This document shows positions 1,363-30,944 of a stretch of 35,056 bases of DNA, piece after piece. The position numbers and the translations under genes are program-made. Source of the stretch: a virus. Lineage: Duplodnaviria; Heunggongvirae; Uroviricota; Caudoviricetes. The notes beneath the pieces were generated by a model that had not been told where the DNA came from, searched no databases, and saw only the letters and a list, made by a program, of their open reading frames with translations. The stretch lies in the IMG/VR virus record IMGVR_UViG_2734482782_000004, one strand, 5' to 3'. Every line of letters begins with the position of its first letter. Positions within the stretch are counted from its first letter, which is position 1.

Positions 1363-1446
1363 TTAATTTCGATTATTTTTCCCGGATGGAAAATTCTTAG
1401 AAACCGATCACATACAGCTGCATTTATTAAGGTTATCATCCGTTTC

Positions 1447-1533
1447 GCTGAAAAACATAACCCATAAAATGCTAGCTGTACCAGGAACCACCTCCTTAGC
1501 CTGTGTAATCTCCCTTACACGGGCTTATTTTTT
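1447..1533 (+). ncRNA. cyaR: CyaR (RyeE) small regulatory RNA; its 3' terminator overlaps the prophage attL core
   Basis: 87-nt stretch gctgaaaaacataacccataaaatgctagctgtaccaggaaccacctccttagcctgtgtaatctcccttacacgggcttatttttt matches CyaR as I recall it; ends in hairpin plus U-tract; positioned between yegQ and the ogr end as in K-12. Confidence 0.75.
1507..1533. repeat. attL core (27 bp), identical to attR core
   Basis: aatctcccttacacgggcttatttttt is present at 1507..1533 and again at 34554..34580; it is the reverse complement of the P2 core AAAAAATAAGCCCGTGTAAGGGAGATT as I recall it. Confidence 0.85.
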
Positions 1534-24563: not shown

Positions 24564-24736
24564 TGTCAGGAGTCCTGAATAGTGATTAGAGGAGTCACAT
24601 GTCGGCATCAGTTTCCCGACGATGCGCATCCTCCGCCATCAGTCCCGGATGGCTTATCACTGACACAACAGCACCTTAGCGAATCGCGGGGCGCGACTCA
24701 GTAGCCTTGCCGTGTATTCATCACGGCGAGGTATTC

Positions 24737-26509
24737 ATGACCATCACCACAGACACCACTCTTTTACACGACCCGCGTCGTCAGGCGGCGCTGCTGTACT
24801 GGCAGGGGTTTTCCGTGCCGCAGATTGCCGCCATGTTGCAGATGAAACGCCCGACGGTGCAGAGCTGGAAACAGCGCGACGGCTGGGACAGTGTTGCCCC
24901 CATCAGCCGTGTCGAAATGAGTCTGGAAGCGCGGCTGACCCAGCTCATCATCAAACCGCAGAAAACCGGCGGTGACTTCAAGGAAATTGACCTGCTCGGA
25001 CGCCAGATTGAACGACTGGCACGGGTCAACCGTTACAGTCAGACCGGCAACGAGGCAGACCTTAATCCGAACGTCGCTAACCGCAACAAAGGCGGGCGTC
25101 GCAAACCGAAAAAGAATTTTTTCAGCGACGAAGCCATCGAAAAGCTGGAGCAGATTTTCTTTGAGCAGTCTTTCGACTATCAGTTGCACTGGTATCGCGC
25201 CGGGCTTGAGCACCGCATCCGTGATATCCTGAAATCCCGCCAGATTGGCGCGACGTTTTATTTTTCCCGCGAGGCGCTGCTGCGTGCCCTGAAAACCGGT
25301 CATAACCAGATTTTTCTGTCGGCCAGTAAAACGCAGGCGTATGTGTTCCGCGAATACATCATCGCCTTTGCCCGGCTGGTTGACGTTGACCTGACCGGTG
25401 ACCCGATTGTCCTGGGCAATAACGGCGCAAAACTGATTTTTCTCGGCACCAACTCCAACACCGCGCAGAGCCATAACGGCGACCTGTACGTCGACGAGAT
25501 TTTCTGGATCCCGAATTTTCAGGTACTGCGTAAGGTGGCATCAGGTATGGCCTCACAGAGTCACCTGCGCTCGACCTATTTCTCCACCCCGTCCACGCTG
25601 GCGCACGACGCCTACCCGTTCTGGTCGGGTGAACTGTTCAACCGGGGACGCGCCAGCGCCGCCGAACGCGTGGAAATCGACGTCAGCCATAACGCCCTTG
25701 CCGGTGGTCTTCTCTGTGCGGACGGCCAGTGGCGGCAGATTGTCACCATTGAGGACGCACTGAAAGGCGGCTGCACGCTGTTCGACATTGAGCAGCTCAA
25801 ACGCGAAAACAGCGCCGACGATTTTAAAAACCTGTTCATGTGTGAATTTGTTGACGACAAGGCGTCGGTGTTCCCGTTCGAGGAGCTGCAACGCTGCATG
25901 GTCGACACGCTGGAAGAATGGGAAGACTATGCGCCGTTTGTCGCAAATCCGTTCGGCTCCCGCCCGGTCTGGATTGGTTACGACCCGTCACACCGTGGCG
26001 ACAGCGCCGGATGCGTGGTGCTGGCACCGCCGGTGGTGGCCGGTGGCAAATTCAGAATACTTGAGCGTCACCAGTGGAAAGGCATGGACTTTGCCACCCA
26101 GGCGGAATCCATCCGCAAACTCACCGAAAAATACAACGTCGAATACATCGGAATTGATGCCACCGGCCTCGGTGTCGGCGTGTTCCAGCTCGTGCGCTCG
26201 TTCTATCCCGCCGCGCGCGACATCCGCTACACGCCGGAAATGAAAACCGCAATGGTGCTCAAGGCAAAAGACGTCATCCGCCGTGGCTGTCTGGAATATG
26301 ACGTCAGCGCCACCGACATCACCAGCTCGTTTATGGCTATCCGCAAGACCATGACCAGCAGCGGACGCAGCGCCACGTATGAGGCCAGCCGCAGCGAGGA
26401 AGCCAGCCACGCCGACCTCGCCTGGGCGACCATGCACGCCCTGTTAAATGAGCCACTCACCGCCGGTATCAGCACCCCGCTGACATCCACCATTCTGGAG
26501 TTTTACTGA
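24737..26509 (+). CDS. P: Terminase large (ATPase) subunit gpP
   Basis: 590-aa product from the ATG at 24737 (MTITTDTTLLHDPRRQAALLYWQGF...), preceded by GCGAGG; the track ORF begins at an upstream TTG. Confidence 0.85.
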   Translation: MTITTDTTLLHDPRRQAALLYWQGFSVPQIAAMLQMKRPTVQSWKQRDGWDSVAPISRVEMSLEARLTQLIIKPQKTGGDFKEIDLLGRQIERLARVNRYSQTGNEADLNPNVANRNKGGRRKPKKNFFSDEAIEKLEQIFFEQSFDYQLHWYRAGLEHRIRDILKSRQIGATFYFSREALLRALKTGHNQIFLSASKTQAYVFREYIIAFARLVDVDLTGDPIVLGNNGAKLIFLGTNSNTAQSHNGDLYVDEIFWIPNFQVLRKVASGMASQSHLRSTYFSTPSTLAHDAYPFWSGELFNRGRASAAERVEIDVSHNALAGGLLCADGQWRQIVTIEDALKGGCTLFDIEQLKRENSADDFKNLFMCEFVDDKASVFPFEELQRCMVDTLEEWEDYAPFVANPFGSRPVWIGYDPSHRGDSAGCVVLAPPVVAGGKFRILERHQWKGMDFATQAESIRKLTEKYNVEYIGIDATGLGVGVFQLVRSFYPAARDIRYTPEMKTAMVLKAKDVIRRGCLEYDVSATDITSSFMAIRKTMTSSGRSATYEASRSEEASHADLAWATMHALLNEPLTAGISTPLTSTILEFY

Positions 26510-27543
26510 TGAACAAGAAAAAAGGGAAAACACCGCAACCTGCGGCAAAAAAAATGACCGCCAGCGCCCCGAAAATGGAGGCATTCACCTTTGGTGAGCC
26601 GGTGCCGGTACTCGACCGCCGTGACATTCTGGATTACGTCGAGTGTATCAGTAACGGCAGATGGTATGAGCCACCGGTCAGCTTTACCGGTCTGGCAAAA
26701 AGCCTGCGTGCTGCCGTGCATCACAGCTCACCGATTTACGTTAAACGCAATATTCTGGCCTCGACATTTATCCCGCATCCGTGGCTTTCCCAGCAGGATT
26801 TCAGCCGCTTTGTGCTGGATTTTCTGGTGTTCGGCAATGCGTTTCTGGAAAAGCGTTACAGCACCACCGGTAAGGTCATCAGACTGGAAACCTCACCGGC
26901 AAAATATACCCGCCGTGGCGTGGAGGAGGATGTTTACTGGTGGGTGCCGTCCTTCAACGAGCCGACAGCCTTCGCGCCCGGTTCCGTGTTTCACCTGCTG
27001 GAGCCGGATATTAATCAGGAGCTGTACGGCCTGCCGGAATATCTCAGCGCCCTTAACTCTGCCTGGCTGAATGAGTCGGCCACGCTGTTCCGCCGCAAGT
27101 ATTACGAAAATGGCGCTCATGCCGGATACATCATGTACGTTACCGATGCCGTGCAGGATCGCAACGATATCGAAATGCTTCGCGAAAACATGGTGAAGTC
27201 GAAAGGCCGCAACAACTTTAAAAACCTGTTTCTCTATGCCCCGCAGGGGAAAGCCGACGGCATTAAAATTATCCCGCTCAGTGAAGTGGCGACGAAGGAC
27301 GATTTTTTTAATATCAAAAAAGCCAGCGCCGCTGACCTGCTGGACGCACACCGCATCCCCTTTCAGTTGATGGGGGGCAAGCCGGAGAATGTCGGGTCGC
27401 TGGGTGATATTGAGAAAGTGGCAAAGGTCTTTGTCCGCAATGAGCTTATCCCGTTACAGGACAGGATCCGCGAGATAAACGGCTGGCTCGGTCAGGAGGT
27501 CATCCGCTTTAAAAACTACTCACTGGACACTGACAACGGCTGA
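26509..27543 (+). CDS. Q: Portal protein gpQ
   Basis: 344-aa ORF, P2 Q length; ATGA overlap with the P stop. Confidence 0.85.
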   Translation: MNKKKGKTPQPAAKKMTASAPKMEAFTFGEPVPVLDRRDILDYVECISNGRWYEPPVSFTGLAKSLRAAVHHSSPIYVKRNILASTFIPHPWLSQQDFSRFVLDFLVFGNAFLEKRYSTTGKVIRLETSPAKYTRRGVEEDVYWWVPSFNEPTAFAPGSVFHLLEPDINQELYGLPEYLSALNSAWLNESATLFRRKYYENGAHAGYIMYVTDAVQDRNDIEMLRENMVKSKGRNNFKNLFLYAPQGKADGIKIIPLSEVATKDDFFNIKKASAADLLDAHRIPFQLMGGKPENVGSLGDIEKVAKVFVRNELIPLQDRIREINGWLGQEVIRFKNYSLDTDNG

Positions 27544-27712: not shown

Positions 27713-27731
27713 GTGCTTTCCCCGCCTCGCC
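27713..27731. other. cos cohesive-end site (19 nt)
   Basis: gtgctttccccgcctcgcc is the reverse complement of the P2 cohesive end GGCGAGGCGGGGAAAGCAC as I recall it; it sits between Q and the replication genes, as expected for a prophage. Confidence 0.75.
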
Positions 27732-28015
27732 CGCCCGCTTCACAGGGCGGTTTTAATGCAGTTGCATAGATACTATGGATCCGCACCAGTCCTGACCGCA
27801 CGCAGCCTGAACGGACATCCCCAACGCATGCAAAAACATTCACTTGTTGCATGCATAGCTTTTTAAGTACGCCATACCGCAACTGTACATTTTTAAGCAA
27901 TTGGCAACTTTAAAAAATTTACATTGCTTTCAAGACCTTATCATCCGTAGTCTCTGTTTTTTACTTTGAGCTACATCAATAAAATCTCAAACATGTTTAA
28001 TGCAAAGCCCTTGTT

Positions 28016-28069
28016 ACACAACATAGAATGTATGTCTAGAAACAACGACATACTATATGTTGTGTTTTT
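28016..28069 (+). terminator. Long imperfect hairpin (10-bp outer plus 7-bp inner stem) followed by a T-tract; candidate terminator, attenuator or structured RNA
   Basis: acacaacata (28016..28025) pairs with tatgttgtgt (28056..28065); inner gtatgtc / gacatac; followed by TTTT. Confidence 0.4.
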
Positions 28070-28209
28070 CCGGCTCTCTGTTCGGTGATATGCCAAATCA
28101 CTTTGCGTTTAAACAGAGCATTATTTCAGGGCAAGACTTCGCTCAAAAGTCATTCCACCTAAGAAGCGCATATACCGGTGGAAGTTGCCCTCTACTTACA
28201 GGAGGCAAT

Positions 28210-28323
28210 ATGAAGAAATGCTATTACTGCATTCTCGTTCTGGCCCTCTTTGGCTATCCAAACGGTAGTCCGAGTGGTTTGTCAGTAAACGTCAGTAATA
28301 TCAATGTCAGCATTATGCTTTAA
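28210..28323 (+). CDS. Candidate small hydrophobic peptide (37 aa) in the tin/old-position cargo region
   Basis: ATG at 28210 preceded by consensus AGGAGG (28200..28205); product MKKCYYCILVLALFGYPNGSPSGLSVNVSNINVSIML; followed by a bidirectional terminator; flanked by 15-bp direct repeats. Confidence 0.35.
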   Translation: MKKCYYCILVLALFGYPNGSPSGLSVNVSNINVSIML

Positions 28324-28340
28324 TATGCTTCAAACAAAAA

Positions 28341-28365
28341 AACCACCTGCCAGGGTGGTTTTTTT
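28341..28365. terminator. Bidirectional rho-independent terminator
   Basis: Hairpin aaccacc-tgccag-ggtggtt with T-tract downstream and A-tract upstream. Confidence 0.65.
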
Positions 28366-28625
28366 GCGCCCATCATCAATACGATGAAAGACTGACAAGA
28401 CTTCGCTCAAGACGAATTATGCGTCGACATAAGGTTACCCGCAATGATTTTATTAGACTAAATGGATGGCCTTTTATGACCCGGATCAAACGGCTGTCCT
28501 TACCGACATGCTAGTCACTCAATAGCATTTAGCCTTCTAATTCAGCATGCTATTGACCTTCTGCTGCCCCATAACTGCTCCGCATAAGCCATTCAATGCC
28601 ATATCAAATTACGTTGTGTTTTTAC

Positions 28626-30944
28626 TCAAATGGGTAACGAGAACCCCGGCCACTCATCAGCGACCGGATATCTGAATTTTTTCCCGTCATAATTTACGGT
28701 TGCCCCACGCGCCAGCGCCTCAATCTCCCATCGCTGCGGCCTGATACCGTTCTGAGCAAGGTCAACGCGGATACGGGTAATTTGCGTTCGTTCCGACCGG
28801 GTCAGTCTGGCCGATGGCGCTATTTCATGTGGTTTTAACAGGCTTCCGTTTCTCTGCTGACGATTTGGTGTTCTCAGTCCGTGTTTTAATGCACCTCTGA
28901 GCGCCCTCACGACCTCTGGCTCATTCCATTCGATAACACCGTCATCAACCAGATTAAGCACGGCTGCGGCATGTTCAGAAGGTGTGGGAGCCGGTAACGA
29001 AGTATCACCACCGGTGAGCTTTCCACAGTTATTGACAGGACTCCGAGGCGCGGCGATGCCGCTTTTTAAAGTCAAAGGCTCAACGACCGGAACTTTCGGC
29101 ACAATGCGCCAGTCCGTCGTTCTGGTGATATGAATATGACGCGCGCCGAGATGCGGCGCGTAAATGCCGACCACCCTCTCGACCTCTTCCTCGTACTCGT
29201 TAACGTCATCCGACGGGCTACGGGCGACCCTGACAGTCTGACAATCGCGCGGGACATTTGCCCCACCCTGCGCGCTGATATACAACGCAAAATCACCACT
29301 GTCTGCGGCGGCGCGTGCAGCCTCGACGCGCTCGTCAAACTCATCAGCAATGCTGACGCCGCGCGGCAATTTGCGTAGTTCACGGTAAGCCCCCATTGTC
29401 GGCAGACCAACCGTTTTAAATTGCGGGATGCGCCACGTTGACGCCCATGCGGTAACAGCCGCAGCAGTGTCTTTCAGCGGCCTGCCGGTATCGTTATCGA
29501 GCTGACCATCCAGTGCATAGCCGTCGATGTTTTTTGAGATGTATTTCGCGATATACCCCGCAGCACCGCCCCGGTTAAGGTGTTTTGCCTGAAAACGGTT
29601 TCGCGCGGCTCCTCTTTCGTCGCCATCCTCTTTGAGCGCATAGCGACGCATGATTTCGATAATCTGGTTACGCTGGCGCGGATTACAAAAAAGCATCATA
29701 TGCCAGTGCGGCGTTCCGTCGTGGTGTGGCTCGACGACACGCAAACCGTAGACCTGTAAATCATTATCCTTGAATGCCGTGCGCATCAGGCTCCAGATAC
29801 GGCAGAGATAACGCTGCGCATCCTTTGGATTAAATGCCTCATCGTTCCAGCCGTGATTTAGCTGGACGGTTTTACTTTCGCCTTTTCTGACCTGACGTGT
29901 CGGGTGATACTTTGACGGCGCGGTCAGCGTGATAAACATCCCCACATCACCCTCTGCTGCGGCGTAACGCTCAATACCGGCAATGGTGTTCATCATCTCC
30001 ATCCGGCGAATTTCAGGATTAGAAATACTGCCCATCACCTTACTGATAAGGTCGATGCGCTCGCCGGTTTCCCTGTTTTCAAGGTCACACGATTTAAGAA
30101 ATTCCAGATTTGCCTGGCGGCGCGCACGCACATCACGAATGGCGTGTTTACTGGCATAAGGAGAACGGTCTTTATTGACCTCCCCGACAGCTATCAGTAA
30201 CGCTTCATGCCAGCGCATACGCTGGCCTTTAAGCTGATGAGTCCACCACTCATCGTTAAACAGACGGGCAATGGCAGAATATGCCTGCCTCGTGGTCATC
30301 TGTCCTTTACGGTATTTTTTCCAGTAGAGAGGGGAAATATTGAAAGCTCGTGCAGCGCCAGCAACATGACCATACAGGTGAGCCTGAGCCTCATCCATAA
30401 ACAGTGATTCTTTTTCGCCATGCGCATCCACCCAGGCATCGCTGAGTTCCTCATACATCATGAAAAGCTGTGATGAGATACGGGCGGCAAACTTTTTCAG
30501 CTCCTTGTCATTCATTCCAGGCAAACGCGCATAATGGTCACGCTCTGCCAGAAACAGCAACGACGCGTCGGTGTTCATTTCATGGCGCTGATTCACACGC
30601 TCAATGCGCGGCCATAAACGACGCTGAAAAGTGGATGTGAGGAAATAAAACCCGTGCACCGGGCTTTTATTGCGCCGGATGTAGTCATAGCGTGAAGTAA
30701 ACAGCGAGCGCAAAAAATAAGGCAGGCGGTTAATCGTGGATAAAACACCTTGCACCTGACGCATCTCGTCACGTGTAAGAGGTCTTTCGCGCCCGACAGC
30801 CTCGCGTGGCGCGTTCCATGCATAAGCACCGGTAAACGTCTTACCGGTGCCTGCGGTAAATGCTGACGGAGGGACAAAACGCCCGGAGGCTTTAACGGCC
30901 ATATGAGCCAAAAGCCTCTGAACAACGCTTGCTGAGTTGCTCAA
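28626..30944 (-). CDS. A: Replication initiation protein gpA (rolling-circle nickase)
   Basis: 772-aa ORF, P2 A size class (761 aa by memory) and position; exact start uncertain. Confidence 0.8.
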   Translation of the reverse strand: MSNSASVVQRLLAHMAVKASGRFVPPSAFTAGTGKTFTGAYAWNAPREAVGRERPLTRDEMRQVQGVLSTINRLPYFLRSLFTSRYDYIRRNKSPVHGFYFLTSTFQRRLWPRIERVNQRHEMNTDASLLFLAERDHYARLPGMNDKELKKFAARISSQLFMMYEELSDAWVDAHGEKESLFMDEAQAHLYGHVAGAARAFNISPLYWKKYRKGQMTTRQAYSAIARLFNDEWWTHQLKGQRMRWHEALLIAVGEVNKDRSPYASKHAIRDVRARRQANLEFLKSCDLENRETGERIDLISKVMGSISNPEIRRMEMMNTIAGIERYAAAEGDVGMFITLTAPSKYHPTRQVRKGESKTVQLNHGWNDEAFNPKDAQRYLCRIWSLMRTAFKDNDLQVYGLRVVEPHHDGTPHWHMMLFCNPRQRNQIIEIMRRYALKEDGDERGAARNRFQAKHLNRGGAAGYIAKYISKNIDGYALDGQLDNDTGRPLKDTAAAVTAWASTWRIPQFKTVGLPTMGAYRELRKLPRGVSIADEFDERVEAARAAADSGDFALYISAQGGANVPRDCQTVRVARSPSDDVNEYEEEVERVVGIYAPHLGARHIHITRTTDWRIVPKVPVVEPLTLKSGIAAPRSPVNNCGKLTGGDTSLPAPTPSEHAAAVLNLVDDGVIEWNEPEVVRALRGALKHGLRTPNRQQRNGSLLKPHEIAPSARLTRSERTQITRIRVDLAQNGIRPQRWEIEALARGATVNYDGKKFRYPVADEWPGFSLPI

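What the first reader, a model, noticed from the sequence alone, without database searches (positions are those of the whole stretch)
27840..28069. Structured non-coding region downstream of cos: palindromes around a candidate promoter and a long hairpin with T-tract
Seen in sequence: palindrome tgcatgca (27845..27852); an imperfect inverted repeat gcaactgtacatttttaa / ttaaaaaatttacattgc centred near 27905; a promoter-like TTTACA (27918..27923) with TATCAT 15 bp downstream; then a 17-bp interrupted stem (28016..28065) followed by TTTT. Inference: a short regulatory or small RNA transcript (about 120 nt) or an attenuator upstream of the peptide ORF; alternatively a protein-binding site near cos.
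Basis: inference. Interest (0 to 1): 0.4.

Follow-up and report, generated by a model that had tools for sequence, protein, structure and literature searches.

The report
Borrowed nrdD promoter driving small-peptide cassette
The "promoter plus hairpin" is a copy of the bacterial anaerobic ribonucleotide-reductase (nrdDG) promoter, with its binding sites for the FNR and NrdR regulators. It sits in a P2-like prophage and appears to drive an unannotated 37-residue peptide gene that is paired with a small antisense-type RNA, a cassette also found on hundreds of Klebsiella plasmids.

Summary
The sequence features are real. The hairpin is at 28016-28065 and is more stable than any shuffle (z -4.8). 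Inverted repeats are enriched in the region. One palindrome coordinate is off by 3.

The interpretation as a terminator or a ~120-nt sRNA is not supported:
- Window 27910-28066 is homologous to the E. coli/Salmonella nrdDG promoter.
- Both FNR boxes and the -10 hexamer sit at identical spacing in 14 distinct homologues and in chromosomal nrdD.
- The two hairpin arms are the two best NrdR-box matches in the whole 35-kb window.
- The inferred transcription start (~28037) falls inside the hairpin.
- The hairpin shows no covariation, and its T-tract is absent from the 87%-identical phage group.

The region is the left end of a ~575-bp mobile cassette (27915-28489). The cassette consists of:
- an nrdD-type promoter;
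- a structured 5'UTR with covarying helices;
- a 37-aa ORF under purifying selection;
- a bidirectional terminator;
- a predicted ~74-nt sRNA on the minus strand.

The 5' end of that sRNA is complementary to the 5'UTR about 80 nt upstream of the start codon. Three coordinated substitutions keep this pairing in a second subfamily.

The cassette is unannotated in 152 E. coli genomes and about 420 plasmids. It matches no Rfam, Pfam, NCBIfam, PHROG or PADLOC family. It looks like a type I toxin-antitoxin system, but toxicity and regulation have not been tested.

The parts
27910..27944 (+). Upstream block of the nrdD-type regulatory region (TTAAAAAATTTACAT...ATCATCCGTA).
   Evidence: Aligns with E. 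coli nrdD upstream TTAAAAAATTTACATAACGC...GTCATCCGTA. The -10-like TATCAT is not conserved in plasmid copies. Function unknown.
27966..27979 (+). FNR box 2, TTGAGCTACATCAA (9/10 match to TTGAT-N4-ATCAA).
   Evidence: Identical to the E. coli nrdD upstream FNR site. It sits 58 bp before the -10 start in all 14 cassette variants and in E. coli and Salmonella nrdD.
27997..28010 (+). FNR box 1, degenerate in this copy (TTAATGCAAAGCCC; TTGATGCAAATCAC in most homologues).
   Evidence: Fixed position, 27 bp before the -10 start, across the family and nrdD. PMC2892513 states that NrdR box 1 overlaps an FNR site in nrdDG.
28024..28029 (+). -10 hexamer TAGAAT of the cassette promoter. The inferred transcription start is about 28036-28038.
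   Evidence: TA(A/G)AATG is invariant in all homologues and in nrdD. The start is inferred from nrdD promoter geometry and has not been measured.
28016..28031 (.). NrdR-box-like sequence 1' (ACACAACATAGAATGT).
   Evidence: Second-best NrdR PWM hit in the 35-kb window (10.5 bits). It keeps 4 of the 6 conserved positions and lacks T11 and G13. The linker to box 2 is 18 bp here and 16 bp in the 87% phage group.
28050..28065 (.). NrdR box 2 (ATACTATATGTTGTGT).
   Evidence: Best NrdR PWM hit in the window (19.5 bits), above all six E. coli training boxes (14.5-18.6). It keeps 6/6 conserved positions C4 A6 A8 T9 T11 G13 (PMC13584703). It aligns with nrdD box 2, CAATATGTTGTAT.
28076..28118 (+). Conserved 5'UTR stem-loop (CUCUGUU/AACAGAG enclosing GGUGAU/AUCACU).
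   Evidence: 13 pairs, 98-99% paired, with 5 pairs showing changes on both sides. The whole-UTR covariation score is 0.183 against at most 0.066 for slid controls, and 0/500 shuffles reach it.
28130..28146 (+). Predicted sRNA target site in the 5'UTR (GGCAAGACTTCGCTCAA).
   Evidence: 13-18 nt of perfect complementarity to the sRNA 5' end in every variant, always with the core 78-84 nt upstream of the ATG. Duplex energy is -25 to -34 kcal/mol against -14.0 +/- 2.4 for shuffled seeds. Subfamily 2 carries three coordinated substitutions.
28153..28209 (+). Two further 5'UTR helices: UUCCACC/GGUGGAA (28153-59 / 28177-83), and an anti-SD helix (28185-93) pairing with the Shine-Dalgarno AGGAGG (28200-05).
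   Evidence: Compensatory changes occur (A-U to G-C between phage groups; U-A to C-G at the SD helix). The SD unpaired probability is 0.18 in the predicted ensemble.
28210..28323 (+). 37-codon ORF, MKKCYYCILVLALFGYPNGSPSGLSVNVSNINVSIML.
   Evidence: Conserved at 37-39 codons in all variants, with dN/dS 0.13-0.41. The upstream 88-aa extension is open only in this lineage. No Pfam, NCBIfam, PHROG or PADLOC match.
28336..28365 (.). Bidirectional intrinsic terminator (A7-CCACC-TGCCAG-GGTGG-T7). It is shared by the peptide mRNA (+), the sRNA (-) and gene A (-).
   Evidence: Invariant in all family members. It explains the weak Rfam RNAI and Phe-leader hits, which match the hairpin only.
28336..28409 (-). 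Predicted ~74-nt sRNA: 5' seed UGAGCGAAGUCUUGUCAG, a middle stem-loop (28367-28391), and the terminator.
   Evidence: The middle stem has 6 of 8 pairs with compensatory changes. It has many U-G wobbles, which would be A-C mismatches on the + strand. Covariation is 0.279 against at most 0.147 for slid controls.
28416..28456 (-). sRNA promoter: -10 CATAAT (28421-28416), 17-bp spacer, -35 TTGCGG (28444-28439), and an A/T-rich UP-like tract (28446-28456).
   Evidence: GCATAATT and TTGCG.G are invariant in the six phage and plasmid copies aligned; the L128 copy (subfamily 2) reads TTGCGT with an 18-nt spacer. The -35 matches consensus at only 3/6, so the simple scan does not list it.
28476..28489 (-). 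Conserved FNR/CRP-like element (TTGATCCGGGTCAT) at the right edge of the cassette.
   Evidence: Conserved in phage and plasmid copies; 8/10 match to the FNR consensus. Role unknown.

Best explanation
Window 27910-28066 is the promoter-operator of a small mobile cassette. It is a diverged copy of the nrdDG (anaerobic ribonucleotide reductase) promoter.

Shown:
- The two FNR boxes, the -10 hexamer and NrdR box 2 align with chromosomal nrdD, and they keep exactly the same spacing in every cassette variant.
Two boxes about three helical turns apart are automatically inverted repeats of each other.

Inferred:
- Transcription starts about 7 nt after TAGAAT (~28037), inside the hairpin.
- FNR activates the promoter under anaerobiosis.
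- NrdR, loaded with dATP and ATP, represses it by covering the -10 hexamer and the start site.
- In this particular lineage NrdR control may be weakened. Box 1' keeps only 4/6 key positions, the linker is 18 bp, and FNR box 1 is degenerate.

The transcript carries a structured 174-nt leader and a 37-codon ORF whose Shine-Dalgarno sequence is sequestered. A convergent ~74-nt sRNA with its own promoter shares the terminator. This sRNA pairs through its 5' end with the leader about 80 nt upstream of the start codon, most likely to block translation or trigger decay, as in type I toxin-antitoxin pairs such as tisB/istR-1 or zorO/orzO.
For: Homology to nrdD:
- BLAST of the region hits the treC-nrdD intergenic region of E. 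coli and Salmonella.
- Identity is 62/71 over 27941-28011 and 94/126 over 27910-28035.
- FNR-like boxes sit 58 and 27 bp before the -10 start in 14 distinct cassette variants and in both nrdD promoters.

NrdR boxes:
- The PWM built from the six E. coli boxes (probe sequences in PMC12176259) gives its two best hits in the whole window at 28050 (19.5 bits) and 28016 (10.5 bits).
- Box pairs occur with 15-bp, 16-bp or 25-26-bp linkers in other variants. This largely fits the reported binding linker lengths of 15-16 and 26-27 bp (PMC13584703); the 25-bp case falls just outside.
- PMC2892513 states that NrdR box 1 overlaps an FNR site in nrdDG, as mapped here.

Against an RNA hairpin or terminator:
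- No covariation and uncompensated changes.
- The T-tract is lost in the 87% group.
- Hairpin energy falls from -20.1 to -9.8 kcal/mol or vanishes in homologues.

The cassette:
- The same ~575-bp unit occurs in 423 plasmids in varied contexts and in 152/5426 complete E. coli genomes, always unannotated.
- 5'UTR and sRNA helices covary.
- ORF dN/dS is 0.13-0.41.
- Seed and target co-vary: GGCAAGACTTCGCTCA changes to GGTAAGGCTTTGCTCA in both copies.
Against: - No transcript, start-site, FNR-binding or NrdR-binding data exist for this element. The start site is inferred from nrdD geometry, and the -64.5/-33.5 positions of the nrdD FNR sites are recalled from Roca et al. 2008, which could not be read here.
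- In this window FNR box 1 is degenerate (TTAAT...GCCC, 6/10).
- NrdR box 1' lacks the critical G13, and the 18-bp linker is outside the reported binding lengths.
- The abundant K. pneumoniae plasmid variants have lost box 2, so NrdR control is not universal in the family.
- A 9/10 FNR match is not rare on its own (5 in the window, 0.74 expected).
- Seed-target covariation between the two subfamilies could stem from a single ancestral event. Identical direct repeats could in principle be two sites for a DNA-binding protein.
- The peptide has only a ~14-residue hydrophobic stretch, shorter than typical type I toxins, and toxicity is untested.
Confidence: 0.72

Rival explanations
1. Reader's model A. 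A sigma-70 promoter (TTTACA 27918 / TATCAT 27939) makes a ~120-nt small RNA that ends at the 28016-28065 hairpin plus T-tract.
For: The hairpin is significantly stable in this sequence (z -4.77) and is followed by 4-5 T. The TTTACA hexamer is conserved in most copies.
Against: - The spacer is 15 bp, and the consensus scan does not call the site.
- The -10 is not conserved (TGCCGT in Klebsiella copies), and the whole upstream part is absent from the E. hormaechei copy.
- The T-tract is TGTT in the 87% phage group, and there are no compensatory changes.
- The stem is AT-rich with a 10-nt loop.
- No Rfam hit even at E<=10.
- The segment between is the nrdD FNR-box region, which is DNA-level regulatory sequence.
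Confidence: 0.04
2. Reader's model B. The hairpin is a transcription attenuator or leader structure in a longer peptide mRNA that starts upstream of 28016.
For: The hairpin lies upstream of the ORF. Type I toxin mRNAs often have regulatory 5' structures. All variants can form some hairpin in this area.
Against:
- The left arm contains the invariant -10 hexamer.
- No covariation.
- No conserved promoter upstream.
Confidence: 0.07
3. Decayed relic. The nrdD-like segment was captured by recombination. In this prophage lineage it no longer responds to FNR or NrdR, and acts as a weak constitutive promoter or is silent. The palindromes are then fossils.
For: - In this window FNR box 1 is 6/10, NrdR box 1' is 4/6, and the linker is 18 bp.
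- K. pneumoniae plasmid copies lack a recognisable box 2.
Against: - Box 2 is a better match than any E. coli box (19.5 bits).
- FNR box 2 is identical to the E. coli one.
- The -10 and the box spacing are conserved across variants that are only 52-70% identical overall.
- In the phage lineage a new left half-site restores a 16-bp linker after an ~10-bp insertion, which suggests continued selection.
Confidence: 0.15
4. A cos-associated site: binding sites for terminase, IHF or another packaging factor.
For: Proximity, at 110-350 bp from the cohesive end.
Against: - Homology among P2-like cos regions stops at ~27766-27782.
- The same sequence occurs on plasmids and next to chromosomal nrdD, with no cos nearby.
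- In related phages 1-2 kb of defence-like genes separate cos from this element.
Confidence: 0.01

Closest known systems
nrdDG promoter of E. coli / Salmonella (FNR-activated, NrdR-repressed class III ribonucleotide reductase operon)
   Same: Sequence homology over about 155 bp. Two FNR boxes and the -10 hexamer have identical spacing. NrdR box 2 is homologous. NrdR box 1 overlaps FNR box 1 in most cassette variants (PMC2892513, PMC12176259).
   Different: It drives a 37-codon ORF on mobile elements instead of nrdDG, and the leader downstream of the boxes is unrelated. In this window there is a ~12-bp insertion between the -10 and box 2. The original box 1 is degenerate and is replaced by a partial box 9 bp downstream. 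The linker is 18 bp instead of 15.
Type I toxin-antitoxin loci with a separately transcribed sRNA of limited complementarity and a stress-regulated toxin promoter (tisB/istR-1, dinQ/agrB, zorO/orzO, shoB/ohsC)
   Same: A short hydrophobic ORF. A long structured 5'UTR with a sequestered SD. An sRNA of 60-80 nt whose 5' end pairs with 14-18 nt far upstream of the RBS. A toxin promoter under a specific repressor (LexA for tisB and dinQ, from established knowledge). Presence on plasmids and prophages, and lack of annotation.
   Different: No sequence similarity to any known toxin or antitoxin family. The genes are convergent and share one bidirectional terminator, not divergent or overlapping. The regulatory inputs would be FNR and NrdR rather than LexA. 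The hydrophobic segment is short and is followed by a Gly/Ser/Pro turn and an alternating polar/hydrophobic tail. Toxicity is untested.
TimP/TimR (ryfA) of Salmonella
   Same: A small (38-aa) protein with a signal-peptide-like N-terminus, repressed by a small RNA (PMC7667032, title and abstract).
   Different: There is no Rfam RyfA hit and no sequence similarity. The gene arrangement and the promoter are different.
P2 old/tin defence hotspot between gpQ/cos and gpA
   Same: Same genomic slot (PMC9122126). Related phages carry defence-like genes there.
   Different: In this window the slot holds no annotated protein gene, only this cassette. In the related P2-like phages inspected here, the cassette sits next to gene A, at the inner edge of the slot.

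Membership tests
NrdR operator | Two 16-bp partially palindromic boxes, each with C4, A6, A8, T9, T11 and G13 (PMC13584703). | tested here: inconclusive
   Box 2 (28050-65) has 6/6 positions and scores 19.5 bits. Box 1' (28016-31) has 4/6, lacks T11 and G13, and scores 10.5 bits. Other cassette variants have 6/6 + 6/6 (L139, L194, L170).
NrdR operator | Linker of 15-16 bp (or 26-27 bp) between the boxes. | tested here: not met
   The linker is 18 bp in this window. It is 16 bp in the 87% phage group, 15 bp in L128/L187/L194, and 25-26 bp in L004/L170.
NrdR operator | Overlaps the promoter (-10 and start site) of the regulated gene. | tested here: met
   Box 1' covers the -10 TAGAAT, and box 2 lies at about +14 to +29 from the inferred start.
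NrdR operator | Bound by NrdR loaded with dATP + ATP, with repression in vivo. | not testable with these tools
   Needs EMSA or MST, and reporter assays in an nrdR mutant.
FNR-dependent promoter (nrdDG type) | TTGAT-N4-ATCAA boxes at the nrdD positions relative to the -10. | tested here: met
   Box 2 at 27966-79 matches 9/10 and is identical to the E. coli nrdD site. Box 1 at 27997-28010 is degenerate here (6/10) but matches 8-9/10 in the other variants. Positions 58 and 27 bp before the -10 start are invariant.
FNR-dependent promoter (nrdDG type) | Anaerobic, fnr-dependent activation. | not testable with these tools
   Needs a reporter fusion or RNA-seq with and without oxygen, and with and without fnr.
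   The stem is AT-rich with a 10-nt loop, and the scan does not call it. The T-tract is TGTT in close homologues. There is no covariation.
Known RNA families (Rfam 15) | A covariance-model hit at or above the gathering score. | tested here: not met
   Only CyaR at 1445-1530 passes. Nothing is found in 27840-28100 at E<=10. The weak RNAI and Phe-leader hits match the terminator hairpin only.
Type I toxin-antitoxin system | A small (<60 aa) hydrophobic protein gene under selection. | tested here: met
   37-39 codons in all variants, dN/dS 0.13-0.41, and an N-terminal hydrophobic stretch.
Type I toxin-antitoxin system | An adjacent sRNA gene with base-pairing potential to the toxin mRNA. | tested here: met
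   A conserved promoter, a covarying stem with strand-specific G-U pairs, a terminator, and a 13-18-nt seed-target match with coordinated substitutions. This rests on sequence inference only.
Type I toxin-antitoxin system | The peptide is toxic on overexpression, and the sRNA counteracts it. | not testable with these tools
Type I toxin-antitoxin system | Homology to a described toxin family (Hok, Ldr, TisB, ShoB, Ibs, ZorO, DinQ, TimP and others). | tested here: not met
   No Pfam, NCBIfam, PHROG or PADLOC hit at E<=10.

The most novel reading that the evidence does not exclude
The cassette is a new type I toxin-antitoxin family whose toxin promoter is wired to the cell's dNTP-pool sensor (NrdR) and oxygen sensor (FNR). 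When a competing phage or plasmid loss perturbs dNTP pools in the anaerobic gut, NrdR releases the promoter. Toxin mRNA then outruns the sRNA, and the membrane-active peptide stops the cell. This would be a minimal abortive-infection or addiction module. It would occupy the otherwise 'empty' P2 old/tin defence hotspot and sit on ~400 Klebsiella IncF plasmids, and it would be the first NrdR-regulon member that is not a nucleotide-metabolism or replication gene.
Probability: 0.2. Interest if true: 0.8.

Novelty: new variant of a known kind. Interest (0 to 1): 0.55.

Why it matters
- The element is missed by every annotation pipeline checked: PGAP in 152 E. coli genomes, PLSDB, Rfam, Pfam, NCBIfam, PHROGs and PADLOC. 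Yet it is a self-contained, horizontally mobile unit on P2-like prophages and on hundreds of clinically important Klebsiella plasmids.
- It would extend the reach of NrdR and FNR from host ribonucleotide-reductase genes to a mobile-element gene.
- It gives a concrete case of promoter capture by a mobile cassette.
- P2 defence hotspots that look empty in protein-based surveys may in fact hold RNA/peptide systems.
- All claims can be tested directly with simple reporters and Northern blots.

Tried and rejected
1. The genome-contig scan used a 14-mer (GCAAGACTTCGCTC). That pattern was too short.
Using the 88-aa extension returned only 3 unnamed proteins. The 1.84-billion-protein representative search found 7 unnamed relatives. 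So there was no annotation to draw on.
3. A literature search for the peptide or seed strings found nothing relevant. Searches for type I TA + P2, NrdR + TA, and Klebsiella + type I TA found no description of this element.
4. I tried to use the K. pneumoniae MGH 78578 dRNA-seq data (PMC10907235), but its plasmid pKPN3 lacks the cassette.
5. Boston & Atlung 2003 is not held, and Roca et al. 2008 could not be read. The nrdD start-site position therefore rests on geometry plus memory.
6. RNAalifold on the first ~40 nt of the predicted mRNAs gave no consensus because of indels. Folding each sequence separately showed only weak, non-homologous 5' hairpins.
7. The 88-aa ORF 28057-28323 is rejected as a gene, because it is open only in this lineage.
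8. I considered the direct repeats as a target-site duplication or as twin protein sites. This is judged less likely than sRNA pairing, because a conserved promoter starts transcription exactly at the repeat, because of the strand-specific wobble pairs, and because the repeat keeps a fixed distance to the ATG.

Full report
**Context.** The window is a P2-like (Peduovirus) prophage integrated next to cyaR (Rfam CyaR at 1445-1530).
- Terminase is at 24707-26509 and portal at 26509-27543, both on the + strand. They are followed by the cos region (about 27713-27731; the fiAA91-ss cosL match).
- The replication gene A is at 28626-30944 on the - strand.
- The finding therefore lies in the variable slot between cos/gpQ and gpA. 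In P2 itself this slot holds old and tin, and it is a documented defence hotspot (PMC9122126).
- Homology among P2-like cos regions ends near 27766-27782.

**Observation.** The features are present.
- The imperfect inverted repeat is at 27884-94 / 27913-23.
- TTTACA is at 27918-23 and TATCAT at 27939-44, with a 15-bp spacer.
- The stem is at 28016-65, followed by TTTT.
- The hairpin is far more stable than shuffles (z -4.77), and inverted repeats are enriched.
The open question is what the palindromes are.

**Distribution.**
- The stretch from about 27915 to about 28489 is a discrete unit.
- It occurs at 87-100% identity in 152 of 5426 complete E. coli genomes, always beside gene A of P2-like prophages and always without annotation.
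- It occurs in Peduovirus records and IMG/VR contigs.
- It occurs at about 72% identity in 423 plasmids, mostly conjugative Klebsiella IncF plasmids, in unrelated gene neighbourhoods.
- A second, more divergent subfamily sits on Salmonella plasmids and in metagenomes.

**What the finding region is.**
- Short BLAST hits of 27941-28008 led to the treC-nrdD intergenic region of E. coli and Salmonella.
- Alignment shows that 27910-28066 is homologous to the nrdDG promoter. Identity is 62/71 over 27941-28011 and 94/126 over 27910-28035.
- TTGAGCTACATCAA (27966-79) is identical to the upstream FNR box of E. coli nrdD.
- The second FNR box (27997-28010) is degenerate in this copy but is TTGATGCAAATCAC in most relatives.
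- The -10 hexamer TA(A/G)AATG is invariant.
- In 14 distinct cassette variants and in both chromosomal promoters, the FNR boxes lie exactly 58 and 27 bp before the -10 start.
- The 57-bp nrdDG fragment that binds E. coli NrdR (PMC12176259) gave the positions of the nrdD boxes.
- A PWM built from the six E. coli boxes places its two best hits in the entire 35-kb window at 28050 (ATACTATATGTTGTGT, 19.5 bits, better than any training box) and at 28016 (ACACAACATAGAATGT, 10.5 bits).
- Because every NrdR box approximates one palindromic consensus, two boxes three helical turns apart necessarily form a long interrupted inverted repeat.
- Box pairs with linkers of 15, 16 or 25-26 bp occur in the other variants. 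The literature reports binding linker lengths of 15-16 and 26-27 bp (PMC13584703).
- In this window box 1' keeps only 4 of the 6 key positions and the linker is 18 bp, so NrdR control of this particular copy is uncertain.
- The common K. pneumoniae plasmid variants have lost box 2.

- With the nrdD geometry, transcription starts near 28037, inside the hairpin. This geometry follows from the -10 position. It also agrees with my recollection of FNR sites at -64.5 and -33.5, and with the statement in PMC2892513 that NrdR box 1 overlaps an FNR site.
- On an alignment of 13 distinct sequences, the hairpin pairs in 74% of cells against 71% in shuffles. Its covariation score (0.076) equals that of the slid controls. 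The inner helix pairs in 58% of cells. Single-sided changes in L140, L141 and L159 break pairs, while they stay compatible with an NrdR box.
- The T-tract reads TGTT in the 87% group.
- The hairpin's energy drops from -20.1 to -9.8 kcal/mol, or it disappears, in relatives.
- The TATCAT -10 is not conserved, and the whole upstream block is missing in one plasmid copy.
- Rfam finds nothing here even at E<=10.
- The terminator/sRNA and attenuator readings are therefore not supported. The 'protein-binding site' alternative is right, but for FNR and NrdR, not for cos.

Downstream of the promoter lie:
- a 174-nt leader with conserved helices (28076-82 / 28112-18 and 28084-89 / 28097-102; 28153-59 / 28177-83) and an anti-SD helix. 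These covary well above controls (0.183 against at most 0.066, with 0/500 shuffles reaching it);
- a strong SD and a 37-codon ORF (28210-28323) that is conserved in length and under purifying selection (dN/dS 0.13-0.41);
- an invariant bidirectional terminator (28336-65).

On the minus strand, an invariant TTGCGG-17-CATAAT promoter (28444-28416) would start an RNA at about 28409 that ends at the same terminator.
- Its middle stem has compensatory changes in 6 of 8 pairs, and has U-G wobbles that would be mismatches on the other strand.
- Its first 14-18 nt are perfectly complementary to the leader at 28130-46. The target core is always 78-84 nt upstream of the ATG.
- Duplex energies are -25 to -34 kcal/mol, against -14.0 +/- 2.4 for shuffled seeds.
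- In subfamily 2 both the seed and the target carry the same three substitutions (GGCAAGACTTCGCTCA to GGTAAGGCTTTGCTCA). Further lineage-specific matches are seen in L187 and L194.
- No known protein or RNA family matches, and no paper containing these sequences was found.

**Mechanism proposed.**
- Shown: homology and fixed architecture of the promoter, covarying RNA helices, a coding constraint on the ORF, and seed-target complementarity with co-variation.
- Inferred: FNR-dependent anaerobic activation and NrdR repression of the peptide mRNA; a constitutive sRNA that blocks translation or destabilises the mRNA by pairing about 80 nt upstream of a sequestered SD; and a peptide that acts at the membrane.
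- This works like type I toxin-antitoxin pairs with stress-controlled toxin promoters (tisB/istR-1, dinQ/agrB, zorO/orzO). However, membership of any described family failed, and toxicity is untested.

**Verdict.** They are the operator and activator sites of a captured nrdDG-type promoter, not an RNA terminator. The wider element is an unannotated, mobile cassette of a small peptide gene plus an sRNA, with an unusual regulatory front end. It is worth experimental follow-up.

Noticed in passing
window 1445-1530 (+): CyaR/RyeE sRNA gene (Rfam 100.7 bits), so the P2-like prophage is integrated beside cyaR.
   Followed up: no
window 28476-28489 (- strand TTGATCCGGGTCAT): A conserved FNR/CRP-like element about 73 bp upstream of the predicted sRNA start. 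It is present in phage and plasmid copies, and its spacing changes by 14 bp in one plasmid copy. It may mean that the sRNA is also oxygen- or cAMP-regulated.
   Followed up: partly
window 28336-28365; L147: The cassette terminator is nearly identical to the terminal hairpin region of a ColE1-type RNAI/ori segment found in an IMG/VR contig. This explains the sub-threshold Rfam RNAI hits.
   Followed up: partly
L001 1017-1502 (-); L164 1080-2827 (-): In related P2-like phages, the space between cos and this cassette holds defence-like genes: a CapP/RmrA-like peptidase (E 3e-28) and a PDC-M29A/B-like AAA ATPase pair (E 2e-31). In this window the hotspot has no annotated protein gene.
   Followed up: partly
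window 28409-28626 (-): The predicted sRNA gene is co-directional with gene A and immediately downstream of it. Early-operon read-through would therefore also carry the seed, and the cassette terminator doubles as gene A's terminator.
   Followed up: no
L128 2480-3010; L169, L172, L187: A second cassette subfamily has a 39-aa peptide (MDRRDCMCLFILTLISHLITGQESWMVYLNHISLTVQFY and variants) and its own seed/target sequence. It sits on Salmonella IncF plasmids next to an Rpn-family nuclease gene.
   Followed up: partly
window 27826-27854 and 27884-27923: Two further inverted repeats (GCATGCAAAAA/TTGTTGCATGC and TGTACATTTTT/AAAAATTTACA) lie left of, and at the edge of, the nrdD-homologous block. 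They are enriched over shuffles but only weakly conserved among phage copies. They are unexplained.
   Followed up: partly
window 28057-28323 (+): An 88-aa ORF in frame with the peptide gene is open only in this lineage, yet it has been called as a protein in some metagenome gene sets (P0001, P0002). It is probably an annotation artefact.
   Followed up: yes
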